A stretch of 64,000 bases of DNA from Candidatus Woesearchaeota archaeon (GTDB lineage Archaea; Nanobdellota; Nanobdellia; Woesearchaeales; ARS49), in assembly GCA_019322895.1 (NCBI GenBank), contig JAHWHZ010000001.1, forward strand, positions 266,220-330,219, read 5' to 3'. The translations under genes were made by a program, and so were the position numbers. Position 1 is the first letter of the stretch, and every line of letters starts with the position of its first letter. The notes beneath the pieces were generated by a model, which was not told where the DNA came from, did not search any database, and was given only the letters and a program-made list of their open reading frames with translations. Of this stretch, positions 2,455 to 25,637 are shown piece by piece.

Positions 2455-3216
2455 ATGACACTATACTTCATAGGACTTGGATTAAATGACGAGAAAGACA
2501 TCACAGTAAAAGGTCTTAATCTTGTCAAGAAAGCAGATGTTGTCTATCTAGATAACTACACTGCTGTCCTTAACTGTCCTGTCAGCTATCTTGAGAAGCA
2601 ATATGAAAAGAAAATCATTCTTGCAGACAGGGATATGGTTGAGAAGAATCCTGAGAAAACAATATTAAAAGATGCAAAAGACAAGAATGTTGCTTTTCTT
2701 GTTGTCGGCGATCCTTTTGGAGCAACAACACATATGGATTTGTTGATGCGTGCAAAAAAAGCAGGAATCAAGACTCAGATTGTCCATAATGCCTCAATAA
2801 TCTCTGCTGTCGGAGTCACAGGATTGCAGGTTTACAAGTTTGGCAAGACAACAAGCATCCCGTTTCCTGAAAAAGGCTTTGAGCCAGAAACTCCTTATGA
2901 TGCAATTAAAGAGAATCAAAAGATCTGCCTGCATACATTATTGCTTCTGGACTTAAGGCCTAAAGAAAACAAGTTCATGACAATCAATGATGCAATAAAC
3001 ACTCTCTTGAAGATTGAGCTCAAAAGAAACGAGAAAGTCTTTACAAGAGACACTTTCTGCATCGGTTGTGCAAAGATTGGCTCTCTTGACCAAAAAATTA
3101 AAGCAGGAAAAGCTTCTGAGTTAATGAAAGCTGATTTTGGCCCTGGCCTGCACTGCCTGATTGTTCCAGGAAAGCTGCATTTTGCTGAGGAAGACGTTGT
3201 TAATCGGTTCTATTAA
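2455..3216 (+). CDS. dphB: Diphthine synthase (DphB, EF-2 diphthamide biosynthesis methyltransferase)
   Basis: N-terminus MTLYFIGLGLNDEKDITVKGL... matches the archaeal/eukaryotic diphthine synthase family. A TATA-like cctttttaaac lies about 25 nt upstream, suggesting a leaderless transcript. Confidence 0.85.
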   Translation: MTLYFIGLGLNDEKDITVKGLNLVKKADVVYLDNYTAVLNCPVSYLEKQYEKKIILADRDMVEKNPEKTILKDAKDKNVAFLVVGDPFGATTHMDLLMRAKKAGIKTQIVHNASIISAVGVTGLQVYKFGKTTSIPFPEKGFEPETPYDAIKENQKICLHTLLLLDLRPKENKFMTINDAINTLLKIELKRNEKVFTRDTFCIGCAKIGSLDQKIKAGKASELMKADFGPGLHCLIVPGKLHFAEEDVVNRFY

Positions 3217-4072
3217 ACTTTAAGCGATATAATCTTTTTCGAAAAAGCATCGCCTCTTTCTTATCTTTAAACGAATAGGATAATTTATTATTTTTTAAAA
3301 ATCGCAGGAGTTTATTGCAAAGAAATTTTTTAGTAAAACCTTTATTTACCGCGCCTTTATCTGAAATTTTAACGTTGGTAATGGGGCCCATAGCAGCAAT
3401 TTTTTGAACATCTTTAATTTTAGAAATTTCAATGCCTTGAAATATGCTCCAATTACGTTTATCCTGTTTTATTCTTGCGGATAAACCTAAGGATAAACAT
3501 AATCTTCTCATATCTGAAACTACAGACGGGTTTGTTTCAGCAATGCGAAATTCTGCTTCAAATTGTACTTGGTAGTATTGATACGTTTTATTTTTCTTTT
3601 TGTCTTTTTTTGACTTTAACTTAAATGTATAACAAAGACTGCCGCCAAAATCAAATAAAATCCTTAAAGCAAGTTGTTTTATAATAACTGATTCATCTAA
3701 TAAAAAAGACAAGGTAGGTTGCGGATTCTTGAGGTATTCGGATTTAGTCTGCAGTCCGGGGGTGGTTTTATAAGTGGGAGATAATGTCAATAACTCTTCT
3801 AGAGCATTTGCTGAATGCAATGTAGAAACAATAATTTTTTTATTGTCGCGCAAATAAACATAAAGCTTAGGTGTTTTATTAAATAAAGCCACACACAAAT
3901 ATTTAAACAGTAAATGCTGTTGTTTATTTCCAACTGTTAACAAGCGGATATATCTCTTTTTTGTATCCATGTATCCTTCAGCCAGAACAATAACTGCAAG
4001 TAATTTTAATTTCTGTACACGGCTCAACTTACTAAACTGTTTTAACATCATATTAAACAGCATACTGCTCAC
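3200..4072 (-). CDS. Free-standing LAGLIDADG-family homing endonuclease-like protein
   Basis: Two LAGLIDADG-like motifs: LLAVIVLAEGYMD and LALRILFDFGGSL. It lies between dphB and a tRNA gene and overlaps the dphB 3' end by 17 nt. Track start is GTG at 4072; the first ATG is at 4063. Confidence 0.55.
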   Translation of the reverse strand: MSSMLFNMMLKQFSKLSRVQKLKLLAVIVLAEGYMDTKKRYIRLLTVGNKQQHLLFKYLCVALFNKTPKLYVYLRDNKKIIVSTLHSANALEELLTLSPTYKTTPGLQTKSEYLKNPQPTLSFLLDESVIIKQLALRILFDFGGSLCYTFKLKSKKDKKKNKTYQYYQVQFEAEFRIAETNPSVVSDMRRLCLSLGLSARIKQDKRNWSIFQGIEISKIKDVQKIAAMGPITNVKISDKGAVNKGFTKKFLCNKLLRFLKNNKLSYSFKDKKEAMLFRKRLYRLKFNRTD

Positions 4073-4317: not shown

Positions 4318-5328
4318 TTATTTTTCCAATTGACCGGTTATTCTTTTCAATTCTTTAATGCACTCAATCATATCATCATTGCAGACAGTGTATGAACACT
4401 CTGCCTGTTTTATCTGGTGTTCATATTTAGAATCATAATAATCCTGCAGTAAAATCTTAGAGACTTCTTCATAATTTTTTTCATCCATTAATTTAAGCAG
4501 ATCTTCAACAACTTTCTTGGTGAGGTACTGTTTTAGATAGACTATTATCTCTCTTATCTTGTCTTCTTCTCCATGTGTAAAATAATCTTTGACAATCTGT
4601 TTTGCTCTGTTTTCAATTGAACAATTCACCCTGACTGCAAGTCCTTGTTTCATTGCCTTAAACACAGAGTTAGGAATAAACACCCGGCCCACTTTATGGC
4701 TTTCTCCCTCAATAAACACAAATTTCTCTCCTTCCAACTCTTTCAATTTAGCAAACAAGAGGCTCTCAAACAGCTTTTGTTCTCTTGGATTCAGGCCGAT
4801 TGCACCGAAATTTGAGCTTCTGTGCTGTGCAAGCCCCTCTAAATCAATAGAAGGCACTAATTTCTTGATCAATTCTGTCTTTCCGCTTCCTGCCGAGCCG
4901 TAAAGAACAATGAATGTAAAAGGCGGTTCATAACTCTCTAATTGTGCCCGGATGTAGCTCCGGTAAGCACGGTATCCTCCTTCAAGCAGCAGGGCATCAA
5001 ATCCCAAATCTGCAACAAGTTTTGTTATGGTTTGCGAGCGCATCCCTCCACGCCAGCAATAAATGATTATTTTTTTATTCTTAGCAATATTTTTGAATTG
5101 CTCAGTCATGCGGGGCAATTTTTTATTATAATATTCATATCCTAATTTAATCGCTTTGTCAGGATTATCTTTATACATAATCCCCACTATTTTTCTTTCT
5201 TCAGTATCCAGAATAGGAATATTGATAGAGCCGGGAATCCTGTCTTTCTCAAACTCAACAGGGCTTCGGGTATCAATGACCACCTTATCTTTCAGCTTCA
5301 ATGCTTCCTCTACTGATATCTTCTGCAT
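4318..5328 (-). CDS. selU: tRNA 2-selenouridine synthase-like protein (SelU/MnmH; rhodanese + P-loop domains)
   Basis: Rhodanese active-site region YCWRGGMRSQ followed by LEGGYRAYRS. P-loop YGSAGSGKTE and IDLEGLAQHRSSNFG are co-linear with E. coli YbbB/SelU motifs. Confidence 0.75.
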   Translation of the reverse strand: MQKISVEEALKLKDKVVIDTRSPVEFEKDRIPGSINIPILDTEERKIVGIMYKDNPDKAIKLGYEYYNKKLPRMTEQFKNIAKNKKIIIYCWRGGMRSQTITKLVADLGFDALLLEGGYRAYRSYIRAQLESYEPPFTFIVLYGSAGSGKTELIKKLVPSIDLEGLAQHRSSNFGAIGLNPREQKLFESLLFAKLKELEGEKFVFIEGESHKVGRVFIPNSVFKAMKQGLAVRVNCSIENRAKQIVKDYFTHGEEDKIREIIVYLKQYLTKKVVEDLLKLMDEKNYEEVSKILLQDYYDSKYEHQIKQAECSYTVCNDDMIECIKELKRITGQLEK

Positions 5329-5360
5329 AAACTATACTTAAAAGAATGAGAATAAAAAGC

Positions 5361-5828
5361 TTATTGCTTTTTGTTATAAATTCCTTCAACCTTCTCCAAC
5401 TGCTCATAGATATTCTCAATCAAGTCATACTTTTTTGCTTCTTCAAGTGTAACCCATGCATGCTCTGACAACTCATCTTCAGCCAGCTGAACAGATCCTC
5501 CGGCATGATCTGCATAAAGACTTACGATAATTGTTGAATGCCCGTTTGGCCTGATAAAGCAAAGGCTGGAAACATAGCCAATATTCTTGATATCAAGATT
5601 TGTCTCTTCTTTTATCTCTTTTCTGAGAACCTTCTCAAATATGTTTAGCCAATGGCTGCTTGTATCTTTTGGAGTGTTGATGAAATCAGAATGCTCTATC
5701 TTTCCTCCGGGAACACACCATTTACCTGGAAATGCTTTCTCATTCTCGCTTCTTTTGCATATCAGGAATTTGCCGTCCTTCCGTATTATTCCTGTTACAG
5801 AGACATAATGTATTTTTTCTTTTGTCAT
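5361..5828 (-). CDS. Nudix hydrolase
   Basis: Nudix box GGKIEHSDF...LRKEIKEETNL. The track ORF extends to 6029 but overlaps the divergent gene; the start was re-set to ATG (MTKEKIHYVS). Confidence 0.7.
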   Translation of the reverse strand: MTKEKIHYVSVTGIIRKDGKFLICKRSENEKAFPGKWCVPGGKIEHSDFINTPKDTSSHWLNIFEKVLRKEIKEETNLDIKNIGYVSSLCFIRPNGHSTIIVSLYADHAGGSVQLAEDELSEHAWVTLEEAKKYDLIENIYEQLEKVEGIYNKKQ

Positions 5829-5897
5829 TGCGCGCACCCCATTTTTTGCAGAAACATAGCGAATATTTAAATAATTCCTCGAATTAATTTGAGTAAG

Positions 5898-6611
5898 ATG
5901 AGATATTCCGGGGGTTTGGTTAAGAAAGAAAGAGAAGAAATCTTTAAGCTGTTTACAGAGCATGCTAGATTGAAGTTCAATGAGATTGAAAAAGCACTTA
6001 AGATACGCTCTAACATGGTCTCTTATCATCTTGAGAAGATGCAGGAAGAAGGGCTTCTTGAGAAAAAAGATGATTATTATTGTCTCACAAAAAAAGCAGA
6101 AAGATACCTTCCGATTATCAAGCAGGTTGTTGGAAAAGAATTAGGTCCTGTGCCAGTCATCTTGGCTGCTGTGATAAACAAGGACAAGATTCTTTTGATC
6201 AAGAGAAATAAAAGGCCTTATCAAAATTACTGGTCTACAATCGGCGGAAAGATGCAGATGGAAGAGAGCTTTGAAGATGCAAGCAAAAGAATTGTAAAAG
6301 AAAAAACCGGCCTTGATGTAAATTACGAAGGTATTTCAAGCGTTCTGCATGAAAGAGTTGAAGGCGAAGAAATCATAAAGCACAGTTTCATACATTTTTT
6401 CACTAAGATGACATCAAAACAAACAGATGTCAAGATGTCTGAACATGGCGAACTTAAATGGTTCAAGATAAAAGATATTGAAAAAGAGAATCTAATCCCT
6501 TCTGACCTTTGGCTGATTAAGAACAAGCTAAATTCAAGGATAGATGTAATTGATTCTGAGATGAAAGAAAATAAAGGGGAATTGAGTGATTTTAAGGTCT
6601 TAAAACAATAA
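5898..6611 (+). CDS. Winged-helix (ArsR-like HTH) - Nudix hydrolase fusion protein
   Basis: N-terminal wHTH (FNEIEKALKIRSNMVSYHLEKMQEEGLLEKK) and C-terminal Nudix box GGKMQMEESFEDASKRIVKEKTGL. First ATG is at 5898; the track start is TTG at 5889. Confidence 0.7.
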   Translation: MRYSGGLVKKEREEIFKLFTEHARLKFNEIEKALKIRSNMVSYHLEKMQEEGLLEKKDDYYCLTKKAERYLPIIKQVVGKELGPVPVILAAVINKDKILLIKRNKRPYQNYWSTIGGKMQMEESFEDASKRIVKEKTGLDVNYEGISSVLHERVEGEEIIKHSFIHFFTKMTSKQTDVKMSEHGELKWFKIKDIEKENLIPSDLWLIKNKLNSRIDVIDSEMKENKGELSDFKVLKQ

Positions 6612-6659: not shown

Positions 6660-7397
6660 TTGAAATTAAGAATCATCTTATGTTTACTGCTTATTTTAGC
6701 TATTTTTAGCGCTTGCGCAAAGAATGAAATCACTGCTTCTGCCATATCAGATCTGCCTGTTGAAAAGCAGATTGAGATAGAAGCAAAAGTGGTTTCTGTG
6801 GATGCCTGCAAGGATGTAACTTGCGGCACAAACAAGCATTGCGAGGACGGCAGGTGCATATGCAATCCTGGCCACAAGACCTGCAATGGTGAGTGCATAC
6901 AGAGTTCTGCATGCTGCACAGAAAATGACTGCAAAGATGATGAAAGCTGCAGGGAACATGTTTGTATACCTGACAATTGCAAGGTTAATGAAGAATTCAA
7001 TGTGGAGAAAAACAAGTGCGTCTGCGACAAAAACTCACTATACTGCGCAGCGCAGAATAAGTGCATTCCTAAAGACAATTGCTGCATGCATCATGAATGC
7101 AGCAGCTCTGATTACAGGTGCACTGAAACAAACATGCTTGCAACACTTTGCATATCTGGCGAGAAAAAACAGTGCAAGTCTGTCTACACAGACCGGGGAG
7201 AGACTTTCTTTATCGGAAAAACACGATATGATGTTGACATCAATCATTTCCTGCAGAACGGCGGAGTTAATGTGAATATCAATGAGGTTAATTTCGTGCT
7301 AAAGGCAGATTTGCTTGAGAAGCTTGAAGAAAACACATTCATCTATATCGAAAGCATTGAGCCGCTGGGTGGTTACTGCAAGAAAGAGTGGGATTAA
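6660..7397 (+). CDS. Secreted cysteine-rich lipoprotein (EGF-like Cys modules)
   Basis: Signal peptide with a lipobox-like FSAC, then about 30 Cys in repeated C-x-C modules. TTG start preceded by SD GGGGGTG. Confidence 0.5.
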   Translation: MKLRIILCLLLILAIFSACAKNEITASAISDLPVEKQIEIEAKVVSVDACKDVTCGTNKHCEDGRCICNPGHKTCNGECIQSSACCTENDCKDDESCREHVCIPDNCKVNEEFNVEKNKCVCDKNSLYCAAQNKCIPKDNCCMHHECSSSDYRCTETNMLATLCISGEKKQCKSVYTDRGETFFIGKTRYDVDINHFLQNGGVNVNINEVNFVLKADLLEKLEENTFIYIESIEPLGGYCKKEWD

Positions 7398-8475: not shown

Positions 8476-10341
8476 ATGCATTTAAAAATTCAAATGAATC
8501 TTAAAGATATCTTTTTTCCTCATGAAGAAATCCGGCCGATACAGGATGAGCTGATAAAACAAGTCTTGTCAGCGATTAATAACAAACAGAAATTGATTGT
8601 GCACGCCCCCACAGGCCTAGGCAAGACTGCAGCAACAATCGCTCCTGTGCTGGCTGCCACGCAATCCAAAGATGTCACTATTTTTTTCCTTACATCAAGG
8701 CATACGCAGCACAAGATTGTGATAGATACTTTGAGAGAAATCAAGAAAAAATATTCCTTGAATTTTATTGCGTCATCTATAATCGGAAAAAAATGGATGT
8801 GTCTCATGCCAAACACTGCATCCATGCGGTCTTCTGATTTTTTTGAGTTCTGTAAGGTATTGCGTAAAGACAGCAAGTGCGAGTTTTACGCGAATTCCAA
8901 GAAAAAGGTTCTGTTTAATAAAGTCCTTGAAGACATCCAGGCAATCTCACCTATTGCAACTGAAAAAATTGTTGAAATCTGCAAAGAAAAAAAGATATGT
9001 CCGTACGAGGTCGCGATAAAGCTTGCATCAAAATCAAAGATAATCATCTGTGATTACAATATCTTGTTTAATCCAAGCATAAGAGATAATTTTTTCTCAA
9101 AAACAAACAAGGAGCTTGCAAGCGCAATACTTATAATTGATGAAGGTCACAATCTTCCTGCAAGAATGAGTGATCTGCTGACTCAAAGATTGTCCAGCAG
9201 GATGATACAAAGAGGAACAAAAGAAGCAAAAAAATACGGGTTTGAAGAGCTTGTCATGCCTTTGTTTGAATTGAATGCAATTTTAACAAGATTGACTCAA
9301 GGCATGGGCAGTGAAGAAGAAAAGCTCGTCTCAAAAGAAACTTTTATCTCGCAGGTAAATAACATAAAGAATTACGCTGAATTGAGTGAAGAGCTTCAGT
9401 CAGCAGGAGAAGCTGTACTTGAAGAGCAGAAAAGAAGCGCATTGACTGCTGTCGCAAACTTCTTAGACAATTGGCCAAACGGGGATGTCGGTTTTTGCAG
9501 GAGCATATCAAACCAAGAGAAGAACATACTCCTGAATCACCGCTGCCTTGATCCTTCGCTGATCACAAAAGATGTTATTGATGCTGCATTCTCAACAATA
9601 ATGATGTCAGGAACATTATCTCCTGCAAATATGTATGCAGATCTGCTGGGCTTTCCTGAAGATACTATAAAAAAAGAGTTTCCTTCGCCTTTTCCAGAAA
9701 AGAATAGGCTAACACTGATTGTTCCAAAGACCACCACTAAGTTTACGCAGAGAAGCGATGCGCAGTTCAGTGCAATCGGCAAAGTGTGCAGCGACATCAT
9801 AAAAAATATCCCTGGAAATTCCGCGATTTACTTTCCAAGCTATCATCTCCGCGACGAAATTGCCAAGTTTTTTGAGCCAGAATGCGAAAAGACAATATTT
9901 TATGAGCAGCCTAAACTGACTAAAGAAGAAAAACAGGACTTGCTTAACAAATTCAGCAGCCACAAGAATGCAGTTCTTTTAGGTGTTGCTTCTGGCTCTT
10001 TTGGAGAAGGCATTGATTTGCCTGGCGTACTGAAGTGTGTCATAGTGGTCGGTCTTCCATTAGACAGGCCAGACCTTGAGACAAAAGAATTAATCAAGTA
10101 TTATGACAAGAAGTTCGGCAAAGGCTGGGACTATGGATATGTGATGCCTGCCTTGACAAGGACCATGCAGAATGCAGGAAGATGCATAAGAAGCAGCTCT
10201 GACAGGGGCGTCATCGTCTTTCTTGACCAAAGATATACCTGGCCAAATTATTTCAAGTGCTTTCCTTCTGACTGGAAATTAAGAATTACTTTGGATTATA
10301 TTTCTGAAATCAGGAGATTCTTTGAAAATCAAAAAGTTTAA
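8476..10341 (+). CDS. xpd: XPD/Rad3-family 5'-3' DNA helicase (FeS-cluster helicase)
   Basis: Walker A HAPTGLGKTAA, DEAH box IIDEGHNL, and four Cys consistent with the FeS domain. The track ORF starts at TTG 8377; the first ATG is at 8476. Confidence 0.8.
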   Translation: MHLKIQMNLKDIFFPHEEIRPIQDELIKQVLSAINNKQKLIVHAPTGLGKTAATIAPVLAATQSKDVTIFFLTSRHTQHKIVIDTLREIKKKYSLNFIASSIIGKKWMCLMPNTASMRSSDFFEFCKVLRKDSKCEFYANSKKKVLFNKVLEDIQAISPIATEKIVEICKEKKICPYEVAIKLASKSKIIICDYNILFNPSIRDNFFSKTNKELASAILIIDEGHNLPARMSDLLTQRLSSRMIQRGTKEAKKYGFEELVMPLFELNAILTRLTQGMGSEEEKLVSKETFISQVNNIKNYAELSEELQSAGEAVLEEQKRSALTAVANFLDNWPNGDVGFCRSISNQEKNILLNHRCLDPSLITKDVIDAAFSTIMMSGTLSPANMYADLLGFPEDTIKKEFPSPFPEKNRLTLIVPKTTTKFTQRSDAQFSAIGKVCSDIIKNIPGNSAIYFPSYHLRDEIAKFFEPECEKTIFYEQPKLTKEEKQDLLNKFSSHKNAVLLGVASGSFGEGIDLPGVLKCVIVVGLPLDRPDLETKELIKYYDKKFGKGWDYGYVMPALTRTMQNAGRCIRSSSDRGVIVFLDQRYTWPNYFKCFPSDWKLRITLDYISEIRRFFENQKV

Positions 10342-10748: not shown

Positions 10749-11870
10749 ATGTTAAAGAAAATCCAGGAAGATTCTTGTTTTTTCTATGCGCCAGTTGGAA
10801 AAATATCTAAAGCACTTCCAGTATTCTATAATCCTGACATGGCCTTGAACAGGGATATTTCTATTCTTTTGCTCAGCAGCGTGTCAAATAAAAACTTAAG
10901 AATACTTGACTTGCTGGCTGGCTCTGGCATAAGAAGCCTGAGATTTATTGCAGGCCTGAAAAAAGGAAAAATAAAGGAATTGACTGTGAATGACAGCAGC
11001 AAAAAAGCAGTTGAAACAATAAAAAAGAATCTTTCAATCAAAAGAAATCCCAATCCAAACAAGATCAAGCCAGATATACTTAACAAGGATGCAAATGAAT
11101 TATTAATTTTTAGCGAGGGTTTTGATTATATTGATATCGATCCTTTTGGTTCTCCTAATCCTTTTCTAGATAATGCAGTCAAAAGATTGTCTAGAGATGG
11201 CATTCTTGCAGTTACTGCCACTGATACCAGTGCATTGTCTGGAAGCTTCATCAATGCCTGCCAGAGAAAATATTGGGCAACTCCTTTAAAGAATTATATG
11301 ATGCACGAAACAGGGATAAGGATTCTGATAAGGAAAGTGCAATTAGTGGCTGCCCAGTATGATAAATCACTGGTTCCGATTTTCTCGCATTCAACAAGGC
11401 ATTATCTGCGTGTTTATTTCAGGTGCAGCAGGGGAAAAATAAAAGCAGACAAAATATTAAGCAGTCATAAGTATCTGCTTTTTTGCAAGAACTGCCTGAC
11501 TGTCAAGACTTCAAAGCAAAACAAGGATATTTGCTGCAAAAAAAAGATGATTTGGGCAGGTCCTGTCTGGACAGGACAATTATGGGACAAAAGACTGGCA
11601 AGCAGGATGCTGAAAAAAGCAGACAAAAGCAACAAGGACTTGTTTAAATTGCTGGATATAATCAGCAAAGAAAGCAGGATAAGCCAGGTTGGCTTTTACA
11701 GCATACCTGTTATCTGCAAAAAATTAAGAAAAAGCCTTCCAAAACAAGAATTGATTCTTGAAAAGATTAAAAAAGCAGGCTATAACGCTGCACAGACGCA
11801 TTTCTTGCTTGATGGCATAAGAAGCAATATTGAAATAAATAAATTAAAAAAAATAATCAAGTCTATTTGA
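10749..11870 (+). CDS. trm1: tRNA (guanine26-N2)-dimethyltransferase Trm1
   Basis: N-terminal FYNPDMALNRDISILLL and the SAM-binding LDLLAGSGIRSLRF match archaeal Trm1. Confidence 0.8.
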   Translation: MLKKIQEDSCFFYAPVGKISKALPVFYNPDMALNRDISILLLSSVSNKNLRILDLLAGSGIRSLRFIAGLKKGKIKELTVNDSSKKAVETIKKNLSIKRNPNPNKIKPDILNKDANELLIFSEGFDYIDIDPFGSPNPFLDNAVKRLSRDGILAVTATDTSALSGSFINACQRKYWATPLKNYMMHETGIRILIRKVQLVAAQYDKSLVPIFSHSTRHYLRVYFRCSRGKIKADKILSSHKYLLFCKNCLTVKTSKQNKDICCKKKMIWAGPVWTGQLWDKRLASRMLKKADKSNKDLFKLLDIISKESRISQVGFYSIPVICKKLRKSLPKQELILEKIKKAGYNAAQTHFLLDGIRSNIEINKLKKIIKSI

Positions 11871-13403: not shown

Positions 13404-15770
13404 ATGTATTCGAGAAACAAAGAGAATAATAGAAAAAGCCAGCTTATTCTAAATCCTGCGTTTTTTGCAATATTTGGCTCAAAAAAAACAAAAGAGTCGC
13501 TTAAGGAAAAAGAAAAAAAGCTGGAATTGATCAAGCAAGGGCTCAAGGCAAGGGCAAAAGACCTGATCAAGAGGGAAAAGCAGGTTGCTGCTGCAGAAAA
13601 AAAGGCTGCAAAACTGCTTGATGAGCAGGCAATCCTCAAATCCCAGATAAACACCCAAAAAGATCTTCTTAAGTCACTTAAAAAAGATTATGACACAAAA
13701 TTTGCAGAGATGCAGAAGGTGCATAAGACAGTCCAGACAAAGCACGGCAGGCTCAAGGCAGCTGAAAAAACAACGCAGTCTGCAATCAAAGAGCTTGAAA
13801 AAAAGGAGAAAGAAATAGTAAAAAGAGAGAAGTCCCTGCAGGAAAAAGAAAGCGAAGTAGCATCCAAAGAAAAAAAGATATCAAATCTGATTAAAAGAGC
13901 AGGCAAGCTTGAAGAAAAAAACAAGCTGGTTCAGGCAGAAATAGAGGCAAAAGAGCTCAGGCTCAAGGACCTGCAAAAAGAGCACCGTGAAAAATCTTCA
14001 GACATTGCCGCAGTACATAAGGATCTGCAGAAAAAGCAGGAAGAGCACAAAGATATTGATGCAAGCAAGCAAGATATTCTTAAGAAACTTGATGCAAAGC
14101 AAAAAGAGGTTGCTGAGCACGAGCGCTCCTTGAAAGAAAAAGAAAAAGAGACTGCAAAAAAAGAAAAACAGCTCGACAAAGCGCTTCGCAAGGCAAAAAA
14201 CCTTGAAGACAAGAATAAAGAGCTGGAATTAGATATTTCTGCGAAGCAGCTCCGCTTGTCAGCGCTTAAAAAAGAAATAAAAGAGCATGTCTCTAAGAGA
14301 GATGAAGAACTAAGAGGATTAAAAGCAGAGGCAGAAAAAGCATTCAAGATAAAGAAAAGAGACCTCGAGGCCCTGAAAAAAGAAGAAGCAATAGTCAGGA
14401 CCAAGAAAAAAGAATTGCATCATTTCATAGAGACCCAGAAAAATGCTATTGAAAAAGACATCCAGAAGTTTGATGCAAGAAAAAAGCAGATAGAGCATGC
14501 CAGGAAACTGCTTGATGCAAGAGAAAAGACAATTCATGAAAAAGACCTGAAAGTCAGGAAAAGAGCGACAGAAGCAGAGCATCTTGAAAGCCTGAAAAAA
14601 CAGATAAGCAAATCAATTGAGGACAAGAAAAGGCTTGCCAGTGAATTAAAAGAGCGCATAAAAGAGCAAAGCAAAAAACTGGAGCAATTGAAGAAAACAT
14701 CTATTGCCGTGCACAAGGAAGAAGTGAAGCTTGCAAAACAGAAACAAGATCTTGACAAGAAAAAGAGGAAGTTTGATGCTGCTGATAAAGAATTAAGAAG
14801 GCGCGAAAAGAAGTGGGCAGAGCATGATGCTGCATTAAAGCTTGCAGTCAACAGGCTGATTGATGAGAAAAAGAATCTTGAGACTGAGATAGACGCTAAA
14901 AAATCAGAGCTTGAAGAGATGCGCAAGGAATGGGACATTAAGGAAGCTGCGCTGAGAAGAGCCGCCCAGGAGATAAAAGCGCAAAAAGGGTCTGTCAAGG
15001 CGCTTGTTGAAAAAGATGTTTCTATATTATCTGAAAAAGAAAAAGAGCTTGTTAAAACTGTGAAGATGCTTGAAAAAGACAAGACAAGGCTCATGAAAGA
15101 AGAAAAGTCAGTCATTGCAAAAGTCAATAAGCTGGATAAGGCTACAAAGAAATTTGAAAGAGAGAAAAAAGATATTGCAGACAAGGAGCGCGTTGCTGCA
15201 AAGCTTCTGCGCTATGTTGAGACAGAAAAGAAAAAGCTTGAAAATCAGAAGCAGAAGATTGCAAGAGTCAAGGAGCTTAAGGAAAACCTGCCTGCTCTTG
15301 AAAGGCATTATTTCAAATTAGTGAAGCAGGCAAAGAAAGAAGAGGCCAAGTTAATGGGAGGCGCGCGCTTGGCAAGGCCTATCAAGAAAAGGCTTGCTAT
15401 GAAGGAAAGAGAGCTGAGGGCGCGTGAAAGAGGCATTGAAAAAGGTGTTGAGTTTCTTGAAGAAAGAGAACGAGAATTAGAAGACCTGCGGGCAATGAAA
15501 GAAGAGGCATTTGAAGACTACCTTGAGGCAGAAGTTAAAACAGCTAAAAGGATTGCGCCGGCTAGAAGAGAAAAATATCCAGAGATAAGAAAAAAGCTTG
15601 AGCAGGCAAGAAAAGGTATTCTTTCTGGTGATATTGATTCTGCAATAAGAAGGGTTGCTGAGGCCGAGGTATTGATGAATAAGTTCAAGCTTAAGGCAGA
15701 AGAAAGAAAACCATTTAGTTACGATTTAAGATATATCAAGGCAAGCATCAAATTAGCTGAGCTTGGTTGA
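13404..15770 (+). CDS. Large K/E-rich coiled-coil protein with internal ~95-aa repeats
   Basis: 788 aa, almost entirely heptad-like EK-rich sequence with no ATPase motifs. Internal duplicates (EKKEKEIVKREKSLQEKESE... and EKEKETAKKEKQLDKALRKAKNLEDKNKEL...) each end in ...LRL..L.KE.KEH. Confidence 0.5.
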   Translation: MYSRNKENNRKSQLILNPAFFAIFGSKKTKESLKEKEKKLELIKQGLKARAKDLIKREKQVAAAEKKAAKLLDEQAILKSQINTQKDLLKSLKKDYDTKFAEMQKVHKTVQTKHGRLKAAEKTTQSAIKELEKKEKEIVKREKSLQEKESEVASKEKKISNLIKRAGKLEEKNKLVQAEIEAKELRLKDLQKEHREKSSDIAAVHKDLQKKQEEHKDIDASKQDILKKLDAKQKEVAEHERSLKEKEKETAKKEKQLDKALRKAKNLEDKNKELELDISAKQLRLSALKKEIKEHVSKRDEELRGLKAEAEKAFKIKKRDLEALKKEEAIVRTKKKELHHFIETQKNAIEKDIQKFDARKKQIEHARKLLDAREKTIHEKDLKVRKRATEAEHLESLKKQISKSIEDKKRLASELKERIKEQSKKLEQLKKTSIAVHKEEVKLAKQKQDLDKKKRKFDAADKELRRREKKWAEHDAALKLAVNRLIDEKKNLETEIDAKKSELEEMRKEWDIKEAALRRAAQEIKAQKGSVKALVEKDVSILSEKEKELVKTVKMLEKDKTRLMKEEKSVIAKVNKLDKATKKFEREKKDIADKERVAAKLLRYVETEKKKLENQKQKIARVKELKENLPALERHYFKLVKQAKKEEAKLMGGARLARPIKKRLAMKERELRARERGIEKGVEFLEERERELEDLRAMKEEAFEDYLEAEVKTAKRIAPARREKYPEIRKKLEQARKGILSGDIDSAIRRVAEAEVLMNKFKLKAEERKPFSYDLRYIKASIKLAELG

Positions 15771-16853
15771 GATTATATTGTTCTTTTCATCTACTTTGAA
15801 TAATTTGCCGAGAAATTGTTCTACAACATAGATATTTGTTATTGTGTGCTGCGTAAGCTCAGATGCTTTGATAGTGCTTGGGCAAAAAAGAGCCATCCAA
15901 GGCATAAGATTGTCTGCAAGGTGCGAGTCAATAGGTGCTTTTGATTCTATTTGTTTTATCAGTGCTTTTGCTGCCTCTTCTCCCACTTTCTCGCTTGGCT
16001 TTCCTCTTTCTCCCAGTGAATCTGCGCCAAGTATTATTGGATTTATTAAATCCAGGTCTTCTTTTTGTTTTGAGAACAAGGCCCACAGCGTGATTCCTGA
16101 GCCAGGAGAGAAAGTGTCGCAGTATTCTGTCCGTATTGTCACAGGCACTTCATACTTGTTTAGCAGGAATCTTGCTGCTTTTGCCTGTCTCTCTGCCACT
16201 TGTGCATTTTCCAGGGATTTAGAGGCATGTGAAACGCCTCTTATCTGGATTAGATTATATTGTTCTGTTGTGTTTATGCCTTCTTGTTTTCTTATCTCTT
16301 CCAGGAATGTTTTGAAATCAGGATAATCTGCAAGCTTGAACTTCGGCTTTATTGTGATTTCTACTTCTCCGCCTCCTTTTGGGAAATAGCCTCTTCTGGT
16401 AAGCTTTACATCAATCTTTTCGCAGAATTTTCGTATGTGCGGGATAAACACTTCTTGAAAGTATTCTATTGGCATTGACCATTTGACGTTTGTCCCGCCT
16501 TTTAGCTTTAGCTTCACCTTCTTGTCTGCAAAAAAGCAAGGAAGCAGCAATGCCTGCATAAGCAGGCTTATGGAGCCTGCGGTTCCTATATCTATCTCAA
16601 TTGTTTTGCCTTGGATCTTTCCAGGTTCGTACTTTAAATCACTGGAACCAATCTCTGCACCTTCTGCTTTTGCATTGCACAGTTTTTCAAGTGCTTTTAT
16701 GCAAAAAAGGTGCTGCGGCTTTATTCCTGCATCTTTTCTTCCTACACGTATCTTGTCAACCTCAAAAGGAATCTGCGTTATTGTAGAAAAAGCAAGAGCA
16801 GTTCTTACTATCTGTCCGCCGCCTTCTTTATAGCTTCCATCTATATGTATCAT
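15753..16853 (-). CDS. rtcA: RNA 3'-terminal phosphate cyclase RtcA
   Basis: MIHIDGSYKEGGGQIVRTALAFSTITQIPFEVDKIRVGRKDAGIKPQHL matches the RtcA N-terminal signature. 366 aa. Confidence 0.85.
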   Translation of the reverse strand: MIHIDGSYKEGGGQIVRTALAFSTITQIPFEVDKIRVGRKDAGIKPQHLFCIKALEKLCNAKAEGAEIGSSDLKYEPGKIQGKTIEIDIGTAGSISLLMQALLLPCFFADKKVKLKLKGGTNVKWSMPIEYFQEVFIPHIRKFCEKIDVKLTRRGYFPKGGGEVEITIKPKFKLADYPDFKTFLEEIRKQEGINTTEQYNLIQIRGVSHASKSLENAQVAERQAKAARFLLNKYEVPVTIRTEYCDTFSPGSGITLWALFSKQKEDLDLINPIILGADSLGERGKPSEKVGEEAAKALIKQIESKAPIDSHLADNLMPWMALFCPSTIKASELTQHTITNIYVVEQFLGKLFKVDEKNNIISTKLS

Positions 16854-21446: not shown

Positions 21447-21537
21447 CAATGCCGCGCTACGTTTTGCTTTTAGAACCACTTGTTTATCAGATTCATCAGA
21501 TATCGCTTAGCCATTGAGGACTCCGCAGGCGGCATTG
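21447..21537. mobile_element. Family-2 91-bp element with perfect 9-bp terminal inverted repeats CAATGCCGC...GCGGCATTG (copy 1)
   Basis: Starts 2 nt after the preceding gene's stop. A second copy at 53251-53343 is in inverted orientation: copy 1's left 16 nt (CAATGCCGCGCTACGT) equals the reverse complement of copy 2's right 16 nt. Confidence 0.55.
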
Positions 21538-21596
21538 TTTAGAAAAACTTAAATAAAAGCTGTATTCTCATATTTTTGGGTGGTAATTTGGATAAG

Positions 21597-22223
21597 ATGG
21601 AGAAAGATGTTTTGGTTATTAGCAGAAAAATACTTTTTGATGCAGAAAAAGACAAGTTTCAGGGCTTTAAGGCTCATTCTGATATTGATTTCCACTCAAG
21701 GATTATCAAAGGATGCAAATACATGAAGAGAGGCATTGCTGAAGAAGACGAGACTCATAAGCAGCCTATTGGCTATGTCTTGATTGCCAATCCTAAGACA
21801 AAGAAAATATATGCCTACAAGCGCGCAAGCGCAGGCAAGGATTACACTGAAAAACGCCTGCAGAACAAATGGTCTGTCGGCATTGGCGGACACATAGACA
21901 GGACAGAAGAATCTGCTCAAGACCCTATCCACACAAGCATGCTGAGAGAGCTTTCTGAAGAAGTTAAAATAGGCCAATACTCACTAAAAGTCCTGGGATA
22001 TCTCAATGATGACAGTGATTCTGTCGGCAGGGTGCATTTTGGCATTGTTTATCTTGCCTTGACAGAATCAGATGTTTCCCCCGGCGATGCAGAATCTGTC
22101 TTTGGCGAGATGAAGACAATGGAAGAGATAAAACAGATAAGAAATTCTCCTGATGCTACTCTTGAAGGCTGGTCTGAGATTGCTATTGATTTTCTGGAGA
22201 AGAATTTGTCGGAGATAGTTTGA
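21597..22223 (+). CDS. Divergent Nudix-like hydrolase
   Basis: GIGGHIDRTEES...LRELSEEVKI resembles a Nudix box with a lengthened spacer. First ATG is at 21597. Confidence 0.4.
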   Translation: MEKDVLVISRKILFDAEKDKFQGFKAHSDIDFHSRIIKGCKYMKRGIAEEDETHKQPIGYVLIANPKTKKIYAYKRASAGKDYTEKRLQNKWSVGIGGHIDRTEESAQDPIHTSMLRELSEEVKIGQYSLKVLGYLNDDSDSVGRVHFGIVYLALTESDVSPGDAESVFGEMKTMEEIKQIRNSPDATLEGWSEIAIDFLEKNLSEIV

Positions 22224-25010: not shown

Positions 25011-25550
25011 TCAGCCAAAGTCAGCAAGTTTTTCCATAGAATGCTTGATTATTTTACCGTCGGCAGAATCTATTTTTATATTGACTGTTTTAAAGCTTTG
25101 AGTGACATATGTTATGTTAAATACTGTTGCTCCTTCAAGGTGCTGAATTATCAAGAAGTGCTTTAACAGTATCTCTTTAGGATAATTCTCCTTTATGCAG
25201 GCTTTTGCCTTTTCCAAGGCCTCGCTTACTGTTAATTTCACTTCTTCTGGTTTTAAAGGCATTATTTCCTGGCTTGCTTTCAGTATGTCCTGCGCAGGCA
25301 TTATCTCTATCTTGTTTCCTTGCTTGATGATTGTGTCTACTTTGTTGCTTTTCTTGTCATAGTATCCTATCTGCCACACATTATCTTCACTTGGCATCAC
25401 AAACACATGAGCAAGATAGAAATCTGGATGATCTTTTTTCCATTCCTTGAATTCAGGTGTTGCTTCAATCTCATCAATCAGTTTTTTGAATTCCATATAA
25501 TCAAAAAATAACCCAATCTTTTTAAACTTATCTTTAATCATCATATGCAT
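25011..25550 (-). CDS. Hypothetical protein
   Basis: ORF with no recognised motifs. Its likely ATG (25548-25550) lies inside the left terminal repeat of family-1 copy B. Confidence 0.45.
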   Translation of the reverse strand: MHMMIKDKFKKIGLFFDYMEFKKLIDEIEATPEFKEWKKDHPDFYLAHVFVMPSEDNVWQIGYYDKKSNKVDTIIKQGNKIEIMPAQDILKASQEIMPLKPEEVKLTVSEALEKAKACIKENYPKEILLKHFLIIQHLEGATVFNITYVTQSFKTVNIKIDSADGKIIKHSMEKLADFG

Positions 25551-25637
25551 AGCACCTGGCGTGCCTTTAAACAAATAAGAGAGATACATAGACTCGATTA
25601 TGCACGCGATAAAAACTTTAAGCAAAGCGTGCTATGC
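25547..25637. mobile_element. Family-1 91-bp terminal-inverted-repeat element (copy B), occupying a divergent promoter region
   Basis: Same termini as copy A. The start codons of both flanking divergent genes fall at or in the element ends (minus-gene ATG in the left terminal repeat; tyw1 ATG at 25638 immediately after the right terminal repeat). Confidence 0.6.

What the first reader, a model, noticed from the sequence alone, without database searches (positions are those of the whole stretch)
4318..6611. selU-like tRNA 2-selenouridine synthase with a Nudix hydrolase and a divergently transcribed wHTH-Nudix fusion
The rhodanese plus P-loop protein matches SelU/MnmH motif-for-motif. SelU works through a geranylated intermediate using geranyl-PP. 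A Nudix hydrolase immediately upstream on the same strand, and a divergent gene fusing an ArsR-like wHTH to a second Nudix domain (HTH-Nudix order, the reverse of NrtR), suggests a small regulated module. A third, divergent Nudix-like gene lies at 21597. The window shows no selD, which would be needed for selenation, so the enzyme may act only as a geranylase/thiolase or depend on a distant selD.
Basis: partly seen in the sequence, partly recalled or inferred. Interest (0 to 1): 0.6.

Follow-up and report, generated by a model that had tools for sequence, protein, structure and literature searches.

The report
SelU beside a Nudix regulator-enzyme pair
The three genes are real, but the tRNA selenouridine synthase is only a lineage-specific neighbour with its own promoter; the conserved unit is a Nudix hydrolase and a divergently transcribed DNA-binding protein with a disabled Nudix domain, which share a strongly conserved promoter and palindrome in many DPANN archaea.

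Summary
The window comes from a Candidatus Woesearchaeota (DPANN) genome.

**The genes.**
- 4318-5328(-) is a full-length, bacterial-type tRNA 2-selenouridine synthase (NCBIfam NF008750, 355.6 bits, cutoff 241). The rhodanese Cys and Walker A are invariant. NCBI already annotates it as MnmH.
- 5361-5828(-) is a 155-aa Nudix hydrolase, "NudA". The mechanical ORF running to 6029 is over-extended.
- 5898-6611(+) is a 237-aa wHTH-Nudix fusion.
- No selD lies in the window.

**The proposed SelU module is not supported.** SelU sits next to the Nudix pair only in close relatives (SelU ≥80% identical in every locus that shows the adjacency). It is absent in 8 more distant Woesearchaeota SelU loci and in 28 of 34 testable pair loci. 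SelU has its own conserved TATA-like promoter and no operator.

**The conserved unit is the divergent pair.** It is adjacent in 35 of 47 loci. A 35-nt block (BRE/TATA plus the 16-bp palindrome CTCGAATTAATTYGAG) is conserved in 40 distinct sequences, down to 46% protein identity.

**Likely mechanism.** The fusion's Nudix box has lost catalytic glutamates (REUxEE becomes R[IVL]xx[EQ]K), as in NrtR and AraR, but the domain order is reversed and the origin is independent. I read it as a ligand-sensing autoregulator that also controls NudA. The ligand is unknown, and selD status genome-wide is untested.

The parts
4318..5328 (-). selU/mnmH: full-length, bacterial-type tRNA 2-selenouridine synthase, 336 aa. 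It has an N-terminal rhodanese domain (active-site loop C91-W-R-G-G-M-R-S) and a P-loop domain (G144-S-A-G-S-G-K150-T151).
   Evidence: NCBIfam equivalogs score above their cutoffs. Pfam Rhodanese hits, and precomputed PF26341 AAA_SelU is listed. C91, W92, R93, G94, G95, R97, S98, G144, K150 and T151 are invariant in 19 Woesearchaeota/Nanoarchaeota homologues. The rhodanese half aligns to PDB 3g5j with E 3.8e-24.
5344..5360 (-). Putative promoter of selU itself. On the minus strand it reads GCTTTTTATTCTCATTC. The TATA-like TTTTTATT (5358 to 5351) ends 22 nt before the ATG, which implies a leaderless or near-leaderless mRNA. The T-runs may also terminate NudA transcripts.
   Evidence: AAGCTTTTTATTCTCATTCT sits at the same distance from the selU ATG in most of the close relatives. 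This holds whether the NudA stop codon is 32-38 nt away or about 145-530 nt away. More distant selU genes also have a TATA box 24-34 nt upstream of the ATG. Promoter function is inferred, not tested.
5361..5828 (-). NudA: 155-aa Nudix hydrolase with intact catalytic residues ([KR]69-E70-x-x-E73-E74) and a conserved 14-residue insertion in the Nudix-box loop (D47-F-I-N-T-P-K-D-T-S-S-H-W).
   Evidence: Pfam NUDIX scores 52.8 bits. The best NCBIfam hit is NudI at 40.9 bits, below its cutoff of 95. The best PDB matches by sequence and by fold are NudI structures 6dt3, 3oga and 3n77. The AlphaFold model has pLDDT 89.6. A search found 986 homologues, and the best 120 are 70-92% identical. Invariant columns are listed. 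A Shine-Dalgarno-like GGGGTG (minus strand, 5840-5835) lies 6 nt before the ATG.
5862..5896 (.). Shared promoter/operator block AATATTTAAATAATTCCTCGAATTAATTTGAGTAA. It contains a BRE-like AAT, a symmetric TATA box TTTAAATA (5866-5873), the 16-bp palindrome CTCGAATTAATTTGAG (5878-5893), and then TAA before the regulator's ATG at 5898.
   Evidence: The block is conserved in 40 distinct upstream sequences, while the flanking positions are not conserved (raw sequences). It is present even where regulator identity is 46-55%. The palindrome is unique in the 64-kb window and occurs essentially once per Woesearchaeota locus. Where the two genes have been separated, the block stays with NudA (L111/L112, L126/L127). 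Where NudA is absent, it stays with the regulator (L099, L102, L105, L108, L110, L115).
5898..6611 (+). wHTH-pseudo-Nudix protein, 237 aa: an ArsR-like winged helix (residues about 10-63), a linker, and a MutT/MTH1-like Nudix fold (about 85-210) followed by a C-terminal beta hairpin. Its Nudix box is G117-x5-E123-x7-R131-I-V-K-E135-K136-T-G-L, so the canonical Glu of RE and the second Glu of EE are lost.
   Evidence: Domain hits are. The alignment to MutT 3fk9 and to Bacteroides AraR 5bs6 shows RE becoming RI and EE becoming EK. In 20 family members, position 132 is never Glu and K136 is at least 90% conserved. The AlphaFold model has pLDDT 84.8, and the best fold matches are MutT and MTH1. 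A search found 226 homologues, mostly labelled Woesearchaeota or Nanoarchaeota. A profile search found 75 clusters at E<=1e-30.
21597..22223 (+). Third Nudix-like gene, 208 aa. It is a marginal Nudix hit with an apparently intact box (R-E-L-S-E-E). It is not linked to the pair or to selU.
   Evidence: Pfam NUDIX scores 22.5 bits against a cutoff of 21.1. There is no NCBIfam hit. No operator motif lies nearby. No homologue was found in any fetched locus.

Best explanation
The interval holds two unrelated functional units that happen to be neighbours in this Woesearchaeota lineage.

**(1) selU.** This is a genuine bacterial-type tRNA 2-selenouridine synthase gene. It is transcribed from its own TATA-like promoter as a leaderless or near-leaderless mRNA.

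**(2) A two-gene switch conserved across Woesearchaeota and related DPANN archaea.**
- NudA is an active Nudix hydrolase. It is NudI-like, has a family-specific 14-residue insertion, and its substrate is unknown.
- The second gene is divergently transcribed and encodes an ArsR-like winged helix fused to a Nudix fold that has lost two of the three catalytic glutamates.

**Proposed mechanism (inferred).**
- A dimer of the wHTH-pseudo-Nudix protein binds the 16-bp palindrome CTCGAATTAATTYGAG.
- The palindrome lies between a symmetric TATA box and the regulator's own start codon. Binding there would block polymerase recruitment, giving autorepression.
- The same TATA box is the only one in the 69-bp intergenic region, and NudA starts about 40 nt to its other side. 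The same site therefore probably also governs NudA, with the palindrome on the BRE side of that promoter. The sign of the effect on NudA is open.
- The disabled Nudix pocket binds a small phosphorylated or nucleotide-like molecule, most plausibly NudA's substrate or product, and this changes DNA binding, as ADP-ribose does for NrtR and arabinose for AraR.

**Shown.** The gene identities, the degenerate Nudix box, the conservation of the pair, the conservation and dyad symmetry of the DNA block, and the lack of conserved linkage to selU.

**Inferred.** DNA binding, the direction of regulation, and the identity of the ligand.
For: **SelU identity.**

**SelU independence.**
- A conserved promoter-like element sits at a fixed distance from the ATG, regardless of what lies upstream.
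- A roughly 95-nt inverted-repeat element is inserted between NudA and selU in L004, L091 and L093.
- Eight distant Woesearchaeota selU loci have no Nudix neighbour.

**Pair conservation.**
- L088, L089 and L090 have the pair in otherwise different contexts.
- Of 47 loci with at least 600 nt upstream of the regulator, 35 have NudA divergent and adjacent, 5 have it within 700 nt, and 7 have none. A few of these loci are duplicates of each other (L089=L114, L106=L135, L111=L112, L126=L127).

**Operator.**
- The 35-nt block is conserved in 40 distinct sequences with unconserved flanks. The arms CTCRAA/TTYGAG are symmetric and the central 2-4 nt vary.
- The palindrome is unique in the window.
- Recognition-helix residues R37, S38, N39, Y43 and L45 are invariant and H44 is at least 90% conserved.

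**Inactive sensor domain.**
- The box is R[IVLQHK]xx[EQND]K across the clade.
- It shows the same kind of loss as AraR.
- Published work ties an impaired Nudix signature to loss of hydrolase activity and a ligand-binding role in NrtR and AraR (PMC2330246 and PMC4666351, read).
- Standalone relatives of the domain, and some distant full-length members, keep an intact REUxEE. The loss is therefore derived.

**NudA is probably active.** E70, E73 and E74 are invariant.
Against: - No binding or expression data exist. The conserved block could in part be an unusually constrained core promoter.
- The invariant TTCC just upstream of the palindrome has no symmetric partner.
- The right arm of the palindrome varies (GAG in 26 and GAC in 13 of 40 sequences).
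- Seven of 47 loci lack NudA next to the regulator, so the pairing is not obligatory.
- The regulator keeps invariant E123 and E152, so residual or non-canonical catalysis is not excluded.
- NudA's nearest characterised relative, NudI, is only 26-28% identical and scores below the family cutoff. Neither the substrate nor the effector can be named.
- In this genome only 32 nt separate NudA's stop codon from selU's ATG, so some read-through co-transcription cannot be excluded.
Confidence: 0.65

Rival explanations
1. SelU, NudA and the wHTH-Nudix protein form one regulated tRNA-modification module. NudA would tune geranyl-PP or another prenyl-PP for SelU's geranylation step, and the regulator would control both genes.
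For: - NudA and selU are on the same strand with a 32-nt gap in this genome.
- The arrangement is kept in relatives at 80-92% SelU identity.
- NudA's closest characterised relative, NudI, is among the E. coli Nudix enzymes reported to dephosphorylate DMAPP (PMC12359138 and PMC6058358, read).
- The geraniol-NUDX1 structure 5gp0 appears among the fold matches, at rank 34.
- The window encodes a geranylgeranyl reductase family protein, so prenyl metabolism exists in this organism.
Against: - The adjacency is confined to one shallow clade. It is 0 of 8 in distant Woesearchaeota selU loci, 0 of 28 in pair loci at or below 66% regulator identity, and 0 in about 75 bacterial selU loci.
- SelU has its own conserved promoter-like element, and insertions are tolerated between it and NudA.
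- No operator copy lies near selU.
- NudA is far more widespread than this adjacency and is 65-92% conserved in loci where selU is not nearby.
- The similarity to NudI is below the family cutoff, and the fold matches are generic Nudix.
Confidence: 0.08
2. The wHTH-Nudix protein is not a transcription factor. It is an enzyme targeted to nucleic acid, for example a MutT/MTH1-like sanitiser or an RNA/DNA-end pyrophosphohydrolase tethered by a winged helix.
For: - The best fold and sequence matches are MutT and MTH1 enzymes.
- E123 and E152 are invariant.
- Some distant full-length family members (P0376, P0394) keep an intact REUxEE, so the ancestral fusion may have been catalytic.
Against: - In the window's clade the Glu of RE is never present, and the second Glu of EE is Lys in at least 90% of sequences.
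- In NrtR and AraR such changes go with loss of activity.
- A dyad-symmetric site sits exactly between the TATA box and the start codon of the protein's own gene, and it is co-conserved with the recognition helix. This is what an autoregulator looks like.
Confidence: 0.1
3. The conserved 35-nt block is only a strong, constrained core promoter (BRE, TATA, initiator for a leaderless mRNA), and the dyad symmetry is incidental. On this view the protein regulates other targets or none.
For: - The block contains a textbook archaeal TATA box at the right distance from the ATG.
- Positions outside the palindrome (AATTCC, and the TAA before the ATG) are equally conserved.
- Only one copy per locus is seen, so no regulon is visible.
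Against: - Other promoters in the same genomes, for example selU's, share only a generic TATA-like element and have no such block.
- Conservation covers all 16 positions between TATA and the initiator, with symmetric arms and a variable centre. This is the pattern expected of a dimer binding site.
- A second copy with its own TATA occurs in L097 upstream of another gene.
Confidence: 0.15

Closest known systems
Bacterial tRNA 2-selenouridine synthase SelU/MnmH/YbbB (E. coli type)
   Same: It has the same one-polypeptide architecture of a rhodanese domain followed by a P-loop domain. It scores above the curated cutoff on three NCBIfam MnmH equivalog models. The catalytic Cys loop CWRGGxRS and the Walker A GxxxxGKT are conserved.
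   Different: - It is encoded in a DPANN archaeon. The published archaeal SeU trait was limited to Methanococcales with a split enzyme (PMC4561486). The split-type archaeal models score far below their cutoffs here (95.1 vs 200 and 54.5 vs 180).
- The nearest non-DPANN relatives are about 40% identical.
- No selD lies within the window or within the roughly 431 kb of Woesearchaeota loci examined. Whether the genome has selD at all is untested.
NrtR family of Nudix-related transcriptional regulators, including Bacteroides AraR (PDB 5bs6, 2fb1)
   Same: It combines a Nudix fold with an impaired GX5EX7REUXEEXGU signature and a winged-helix DNA-binding domain. AraR is the second-best PDB sequence match and shows the same kind of substitutions (RV..EL against RI..EK here). 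Autoregulation through a palindrome near its own promoter is the expected logic.
   Different: - The domain order is reversed, with the wHTH N-terminal.
- The wHTH is ArsR-like, not the NrtR C-terminal domain.
- The NCBIfam NtrR model scores 19.4 bits against a cutoff of 400.
- The Nudix fold is closest to MutT/MTH1, not to ADP-ribose pyrophosphatases.
- The host is archaeal, and the partner gene is a Nudix hydrolase rather than NAD or sugar genes.
- It is therefore an independent, convergent fusion and not a member of the NrtR family.
NudI (YfaO) nucleoside triphosphatase of enterobacteria
   Same: It is the best sequence and structure match for NudA (6dt3: phmmer E 5.8e-09, Foldseek E 1e-11, 26-28% identity). 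The catalytic glutamates are present in NudA.
   Different: It scores below the NCBIfam NudI cutoff (40.9 vs 95). NudA has a conserved 14-residue insertion inside the Nudix box loop that is absent from NudI. Its substrate is unknown.
ArsR/SmtB-type winged-helix repressors
   Same: The recognition-helix pattern (RSNMVSYHLEKMQEEGLL) and the alpha-beta-alpha-alpha-beta-beta topology match. The presumed target is a palindromic operator overlapping the promoter.
   Different: The hits fall below the curated cutoffs (HTH_5 21.6 vs 22; NF033788 24.3 vs 55). No metal-binding motif is evident. The sensing is presumably done by the fused Nudix fold.

Membership tests
SelU/MnmH tRNA 2-selenouridine synthase | Score above the curated cutoff of an equivalog model over the full length | tested here: met
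   NF008750 scores 355.6 against 241 (residues 1-333). TIGR03167 scores 318.1 against 219.75. NF008752 scores 270.1 against 266.
SelU/MnmH tRNA 2-selenouridine synthase | Rhodanese domain with the active-site cysteine loop | tested here: met
   Pfam Rhodanese scores 59.2 bits. C91-W-R-G-G-x-R-S is invariant in 19 homologues.
SelU/MnmH tRNA 2-selenouridine synthase | C-terminal P-loop (Walker A) domain of the SelU type | tested here: met
   G144, K150 and T151 are invariant. Precomputed PF26341 AAA_SelU is listed on the identical protein.
SelU/MnmH tRNA 2-selenouridine synthase | A selenophosphate supply (selD) in the same genome | not testable with these tools
   selD is absent from the 64-kb window and from about 431 kb of Woesearchaeota loci. 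The same probe finds selD in 10 bacterial loci. The rest of the genome (contig up to 705 kb) could not be read.
SelU/MnmH tRNA 2-selenouridine synthase | Geranylation and selenation of s2U34 in tRNA | not testable with these tools
   This is a biochemical property. No tRNA gene lies in the window.
NrtR family (Nudix-related transcriptional regulators) | N-terminal Nudix domain followed by the family's C-terminal wHTH domain | tested here: not met
   The order is wHTH (about 10-63) and then Nudix (about 85-210). The NCBIfam NtrR model scores 19.4 bits against a cutoff of 400.
NrtR family (Nudix-related transcriptional regulators) | Impaired Nudix signature, with the domain used for ligand binding | tested here: met
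   The signature is impaired: R131-I-V-K-E-K136. Position 132 is never Glu, and K136 is at least 90% conserved. Ligand binding itself is not testable here.
NrtR family (Nudix-related transcriptional regulators) | A palindromic operator at its own or target promoters | tested here: inconclusive
   A conserved 16-bp palindrome lies between the TATA box and the ATG in 40 distinct sequences. Binding was not tested.
Nudix hydrolase superfamily (NudA) | Pfam NUDIX above its cutoff, with the catalytic REUxEE glutamates | tested here: met
   Pfam NUDIX scores 52.8 bits against 21.1. [KR]69 is present and E70, E73 and E74 are invariant. Gly is replaced by Asn/Thr/Ser at the xGU position, and there is a 14-residue loop insertion.
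NudI nucleoside triphosphatase (equivalog NF012016) | Score above the curated cutoff | tested here: not met
   NudA scores 40.9 bits against a cutoff of 95.
ArsR/SmtB metalloregulators | Score above the curated cutoff for HTH_5 or NF033788 | tested here: not met
   HTH_5 scores 21.6 against 22. NF033788 scores 24.3 against 55. The fold is consistent with a winged helix.

The most novel reading that the evidence does not exclude
The wHTH-pseudo-Nudix protein represents an undescribed archaeal family of Nudix-related transcription factors. It arose independently of bacterial NrtR by fusing an ArsR-like winged helix to a MutT-like hydrolase that then lost its catalytic glutamates. Together with its 16-bp palindrome and the very highly conserved hydrolase NudA, it forms a metabolite-responsive switch. 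That switch would be one of the few conserved regulatory circuits in the reduced genomes of Woesearchaeota and related DPANN archaea.

A secondary possibility was not tested. These archaea may carry a bacterial-type SelU without selD and use it only as a tRNA geranyltransferase.
Probability: 0.5. Interest if true: 0.55.

Novelty: new variant of a known kind. Interest (0 to 1): 0.4.

Why it matters
**For the finding as written, the result is sobering.** The selU gene is ordinary and already annotated, and its link to the Nudix genes comes from looking at a single genome.

**Two things remain of some value.**

1. DPANN archaea have tiny genomes, few recognisable regulators, and no genetic systems. 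Here a regulator, its probable operator, its core promoter geometry (BRE/TATA, operator, leaderless start) and a target gene can all be read directly from sequence and are conserved across many lineages. That gives a concrete, testable entry point: gel shifts with a 35-bp duplex, and ligand screening by thermal shift. It also shows that the "disabled Nudix domain as sensor" solution evolved at least twice.

2. Full-length bacterial-type SelU is widespread in Woesearchaeota and Nanoarchaeota. The literature I could search places the archaeal selenouridine trait only in Methanococcales, with a split enzyme. Checking these genomes for selD would show whether DPANN archaea use selenium in tRNA or carry an orphan SelU.

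Tried and rejected
1. **selD in the window and in relatives.** I could not search the rest of the genome.
2. **selD or Nudix next to selU in distant Woesearchaeota.** Eight loci were examined and neither was found. Two have the tRNA dihydrouridine synthase Dus as a neighbour.
3. **Further operator copies that would define a regulon.** None exists in the window. Among the loci there are only two extra matches. One in L097 is a full TATA-plus-palindrome copy upstream of a 153-aa hypothetical gene. One in L130 looks like chance.
4. **NrtR membership.** Rejected on domain order, model score and fold neighbours.
5. **NudI membership for NudA.** Rejected on score.
6. **The prenyl-diphosphatase idea for NudA.** The literature shows that NudI has DMAPP activity. 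The similarity is too weak to transfer that function, and the genomic linkage to selU is not conserved.
7. **RNA elements.** Rfam and tRNA scans of the window found nothing.
8. **Fold of the roughly 95-nt inverted-repeat element.** Its folding energy is not distinguishable from shuffled sequence (z = -1.1), so I make no structured-RNA claim.
9. **Literature on SelU, selD or Nudix regulators in DPANN/Woesearchaeota.** Searches found nothing relevant.


Full report
**Source and context**

The window is archaeal. It encodes diphthine synthase, ribosomal protein S15 with the archaeal/eukaryotic S13 N-terminal domain, Trm1, TYW1, RtcA and FtsZ. The SelU protein is identical to one that NCBI labels [quoted passage not shown], found on contigs up to 705 kb. 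GC content is about 38%.

**Checking the observation**

- ***SelU.*** The ORF at 4318-5328(-) encodes 336 aa. It has a Pfam Rhodanese domain (59.2 bits). It scores above the curated cutoffs of three NCBIfam MnmH equivalogs (NF008750 355.6 vs 241, TIGR03167 318.1 vs 219.75, NF008752 270.1 vs 266).
- ***SelU motifs.*** In an alignment with 18 homologues at 42-86% identity, the rhodanese loop C91-W-R-G-G-x-R-S and the Walker A residues G144, K150 and T151 are invariant.
- ***Archaeal split type.*** The split SelU models of the Methanococcus type score far below their cutoffs. This is the fused bacterial type.
- ***The Nudix ORF upstream.*** It is listed mechanically as 5361-6029 and overlaps the divergent gene. 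Gene callers on identical contigs, and all homologues, start it at the ATG at 5828, giving 155 aa.
- ***The divergent gene.*** It starts at the ATG at 5898 and encodes 237 aa. A 69-bp intergenic region (5829-5897) separates the two genes.
- ***Domains.*** Both genes have Pfam NUDIX domains (52.8 and 57.2 bits). The second has weak ArsR-type HTH hits and a confident AlphaFold winged helix.
- ***The third Nudix-like gene.*** The gene at 21597-22223 is marginal (22.5 bits against 21.1).
- ***selD.*** No selD lies in the window. It proved valid by finding selD next to selU in 10 bacterial loci.

**Is SelU part of a module with the Nudix genes?**

I fetched SelU neighbourhoods from genomes and metagenomes.

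- ***Close relatives.*** The same gene order, wHTH-Nudix divergent from NudA followed by SelU, is found wherever SelU is at least 80% identical. Full or near-full SelU matches are in L004, L005 and L091-L095; partial matches are in the fragments L119 and L132. The flanking genes (S15, helicase, diphthine synthase, FtsZ) are syntenic too.
- ***Distant Woesearchaeota SelU loci.*** Eight loci at 45-60% identity (L006, L007, L085, L086, L087, L139, L140 and one JGI contig without DNA) have no Nudix gene and no selD next to SelU. Two have the tRNA dihydrouridine synthase Dus as a convergent neighbour.
- ***Bacterial SelU loci.*** None of about 75 has a homologue of either Nudix protein nearby.
- ***SelU's own promoter.*** In most of the close relatives, the sequence AAGCTTTTTATTCTCATTCT lies at a fixed position 16-35 nt upstream of the SelU ATG. 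This holds whether the NudA stop codon abuts it (window, L092, L094/L005, L095) or lies about 145-530 nt further away (L004, L091, L093). In those three loci a roughly 95-nt inverted-repeat element or more is inserted.
- ***Promoter geometry.*** The TATA-like TTTTTATT ends 22 nt before the ATG. This matches the geometry of the regulator's promoter. More distant SelU genes also have a TATA box 24-34 nt upstream.

SelU therefore looks like an independently transcribed gene. The spacer between it and NudA is not constrained as an operon junction would be.

**What is conserved instead**

- ***The regulator family.*** The wHTH-Nudix protein has 226 homologues, mostly labelled Woesearchaeota or Nanoarchaeota. 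They are all about 235 aa and 55-91% identical among the best 120.
- ***First three loci.*** In genomes at 57-64% identity, a 152-166-aa Nudix gene sits divergently 45-65 bp upstream in otherwise unrelated contexts, with no SelU.
- ***Metagenome scan.*** A scan with the family alignment returned 48 further loci.
- ***Counts.*** Of 47 loci with at least 600 nt upstream, 35 have NudA divergent and adjacent, 5 have it within 700 nt, and 7 lack it. SelU is next to the pair in 6 of 34 testable loci, all with regulator identity of at least 70.9%, and in 0 of 28 at or below 66.4%. A few loci are duplicates, so the counts are slightly inflated.
- ***NudA conservation.*** NudA is strikingly conserved. 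It is 65-92% identical in nearly all of these loci. It has 986 homologues, and the best 120 are at least 70% identical, including proteins labelled Pacearchaeota.

**The shared DNA element**

- ***Conservation.*** Aligning the sequences upstream of the regulator shows a 35-nt block, AATATTTAAATAATTCCTCGAATTAATTYGAGTAA, in 40 distinct sequences. Positions further out on either side are not conserved. My anchoring pattern forced only CCTC and part of the right arm. The other near-invariant positions were free to vary.
- ***Window coordinates.*** The block is 5862-5896. It holds a canonical archaeal TATA box, TTTAAATA, at 5866-5873. This box is itself nearly symmetric and is preceded by a BRE-like purine/AAT stretch. 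It also holds the 16-bp palindrome CTCGAATTAATTTGAG at 5878-5893. TAA follows, then the ATG at 5898.
- ***Palindrome structure.*** The arms CTCRAA/TTYGAG are conserved and the central positions vary. That is the signature of a dimer binding site.
- ***Regulator promoter.*** Twenty-four nucleotides separate the TATA box from the ATG, so the regulator's mRNA should be leaderless. The palindrome occupies the space where the polymerase is recruited.
- ***NudA promoter.*** On the other side, NudA's ATG is about 38 nt from the TATA box. It is preceded by a Shine-Dalgarno-like GGGGTG, and GGTG recurs in many of the other loci. No second TATA box lies in the 69-bp spacer. A bidirectional promoter is therefore plausible, with the palindrome on the BRE side for NudA.
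- ***Behaviour when the genes separate.*** Where insertions have separated the two genes, the block stays with NudA (L111/L112, L126/L127). Where NudA is absent, it stays with the regulator (L099, L102, L105, L108, L110, L115). This fits a role at both genes.
- ***Copy number.*** The palindrome is unique in the window and occurs essentially once per locus. One relative (L097) has a second full TATA-plus-palindrome copy upstream of a hypothetical gene.

**The proteins**

- ***The regulator's Nudix box.*** It reads G117-x5-E123-x7-R131-I-V-K-E135-K136-T-G-L. Aligned to B. halodurans MutT, the canonical RE..EE is RI..EK. Across 20 family members, position 132 is never Glu and K136 is at least 90% conserved.
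- ***Comparison with AraR.*** The second-best PDB sequence match is Bacteroides AraR, an NrtR-family regulator with the same kind of loss (RV..EL).
- ***Published support.*** The NrtR and AraR papers link an impaired signature to loss of activity and to use of the pocket for effector binding.
- ***Not an NrtR member.*** The domain order is reversed. The wHTH is ArsR-like. The NtrR model scores 19.4 bits against 400. The AlphaFold model (pLDDT 84.8) matches MutT and MTH1 best.
- ***Family history.*** A profile search of 1.84 billion representatives found 75 clusters at E<=1e-30. Standalone Nudix proteins related to the sensor domain, and some distant full-length members, retain an intact REUxEE. 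The family therefore began as a fusion to an active hydrolase, and the window's clade then lost catalysis. NrtR shows the same spectrum.
- ***Recognition helix.*** R37, S38, N39, Y43 and L45 are invariant and H44 is at least 90% conserved, in parallel with the conserved operator arms.
- ***NudA.*** It keeps [KR]69, E70, E73 and E74. It has a conserved 14-residue insertion in the Nudix-box loop. Its nearest characterised relative by sequence and fold is NudI, at 26-28% identity and below the family cutoff. Its substrate cannot be inferred.

**Mechanism proposed**

A dimer of the wHTH-pseudo-Nudix protein binds the palindrome. It represses its own leaderless transcript, and it either represses or activates NudA from the shared TATA box. 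A small molecule bound in the disabled Nudix pocket modulates DNA binding, and this molecule is most simply NudA's substrate or product. The anatomy and its conservation are shown. Binding, the sign of regulation and the ligand are inferred.

**SelU itself**

It is a credible enzyme under selection in many Woesearchaeota lineages. The literature I could search reports the archaeal SeU trait only in Methanococcales with a split ybbB, and SelD only in Methanococcales and Methanopyri (PMC4561486). An Asgard survey found no SeU trait. No paper links SelU with Woesearchaeota. Whether these genomes have selD could not be tested here.

**Verdict**

- The SelU-centred module is not supported.
- The real conserved feature is a Nudix hydrolase plus a Nudix-derived regulator, with a shared and highly conserved promoter/operator. 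It works like NrtR/AraR but is not a member of that family.
- I rate it a new variant of a known kind, of moderate interest.

Noticed in passing
window 21447-21538; also L004 about 9868-9960, L091 about 3365-3460, L093 two copies (near 1372 and 3882): A roughly 95-nt element has 10-bp terminal inverted repeats (CAATGCCGCG ... CGCAGGCGGCATTG) and a conserved core TGAGRACTYCGC. In the window it sits just upstream of the third Nudix-like gene. In three relatives a copy is inserted between NudA and selU, and L093 has two copies. It looks like a small mobile (MITE-like) element. Its folding energy is not better than shuffled sequence (z = -1.1).
   Followed up: partly
window 3200-4072 (-): A 290-aa ORF lies between selU and the diphthine synthase gene. 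It has only a weak LAGLIDADG_3 hit (17.4 bits, below cutoff). It is present only in contigs of this same species. Relatives have a 200-bp gap (L004) or different, non-homologous inserts of 1-1.7 kb (L005/L094, L091) at this position, so the site is a variable insertion spot.
   Followed up: partly
window 6660-7397 (+): A 245-aa cysteine-rich protein has an N-terminal signal or lipoprotein-like sequence and no Pfam or NCBIfam match. It is syntenic in the close relatives but only 52-57% identical in most of them, where SelU is 81-83% identical. It is therefore evolving fast.
   Followed up: partly
L087 11008-12024 and L139 10980-11945: In two distant Woesearchaeota genomes, selU is convergent with and slightly overlaps a Dus (tRNA dihydrouridine synthase) gene. 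L139 also has a pseudouridine synthase immediately upstream. This is a tRNA-modification neighbourhood that fits SelU's role better than the Nudix genes do.
   Followed up: no
L097 4716-4732 (-): A second full copy of the TATA-plus-palindrome block lies just after the regulator's stop codon. It is oriented as at NudA, upstream of a 153-aa hypothetical gene (4771-5232) followed by a 127-aa ORF that reads as related to it (not tested). This is a possible extra regulon member in that genome.
   Followed up: partly
window 52149-53228 (+): A geranylgeranyl reductase family protein (TIGR02032, 184.1 bits against 158.8). The organism therefore handles prenyl lipids, which bears on whether geranyl-PP could be available to SelU.
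   Followed up: no
window 10749-11870, 15753-16853, 25545-26573: Other RNA-modification and RNA-repair genes are scattered through the window: Trm1 (m2,2G), RNA 3'-phosphate cyclase RtcA, and the radical-SAM wyosine enzyme TYW1/Taw1. None is adjacent to selU.
   Followed up: no
proteins P0399, P0411, P0417, P0418, P0437, P0442, P0451, P0458: These standalone Nudix proteins of 150-170 aa share the regulator's sensor domain, including its C-terminal PSD-W motif and beta hairpin, but keep an intact REUxEE box. They are probably the enzymatic ancestors or sisters of the sensor domain. Their function is unknown.
   Followed up: partly
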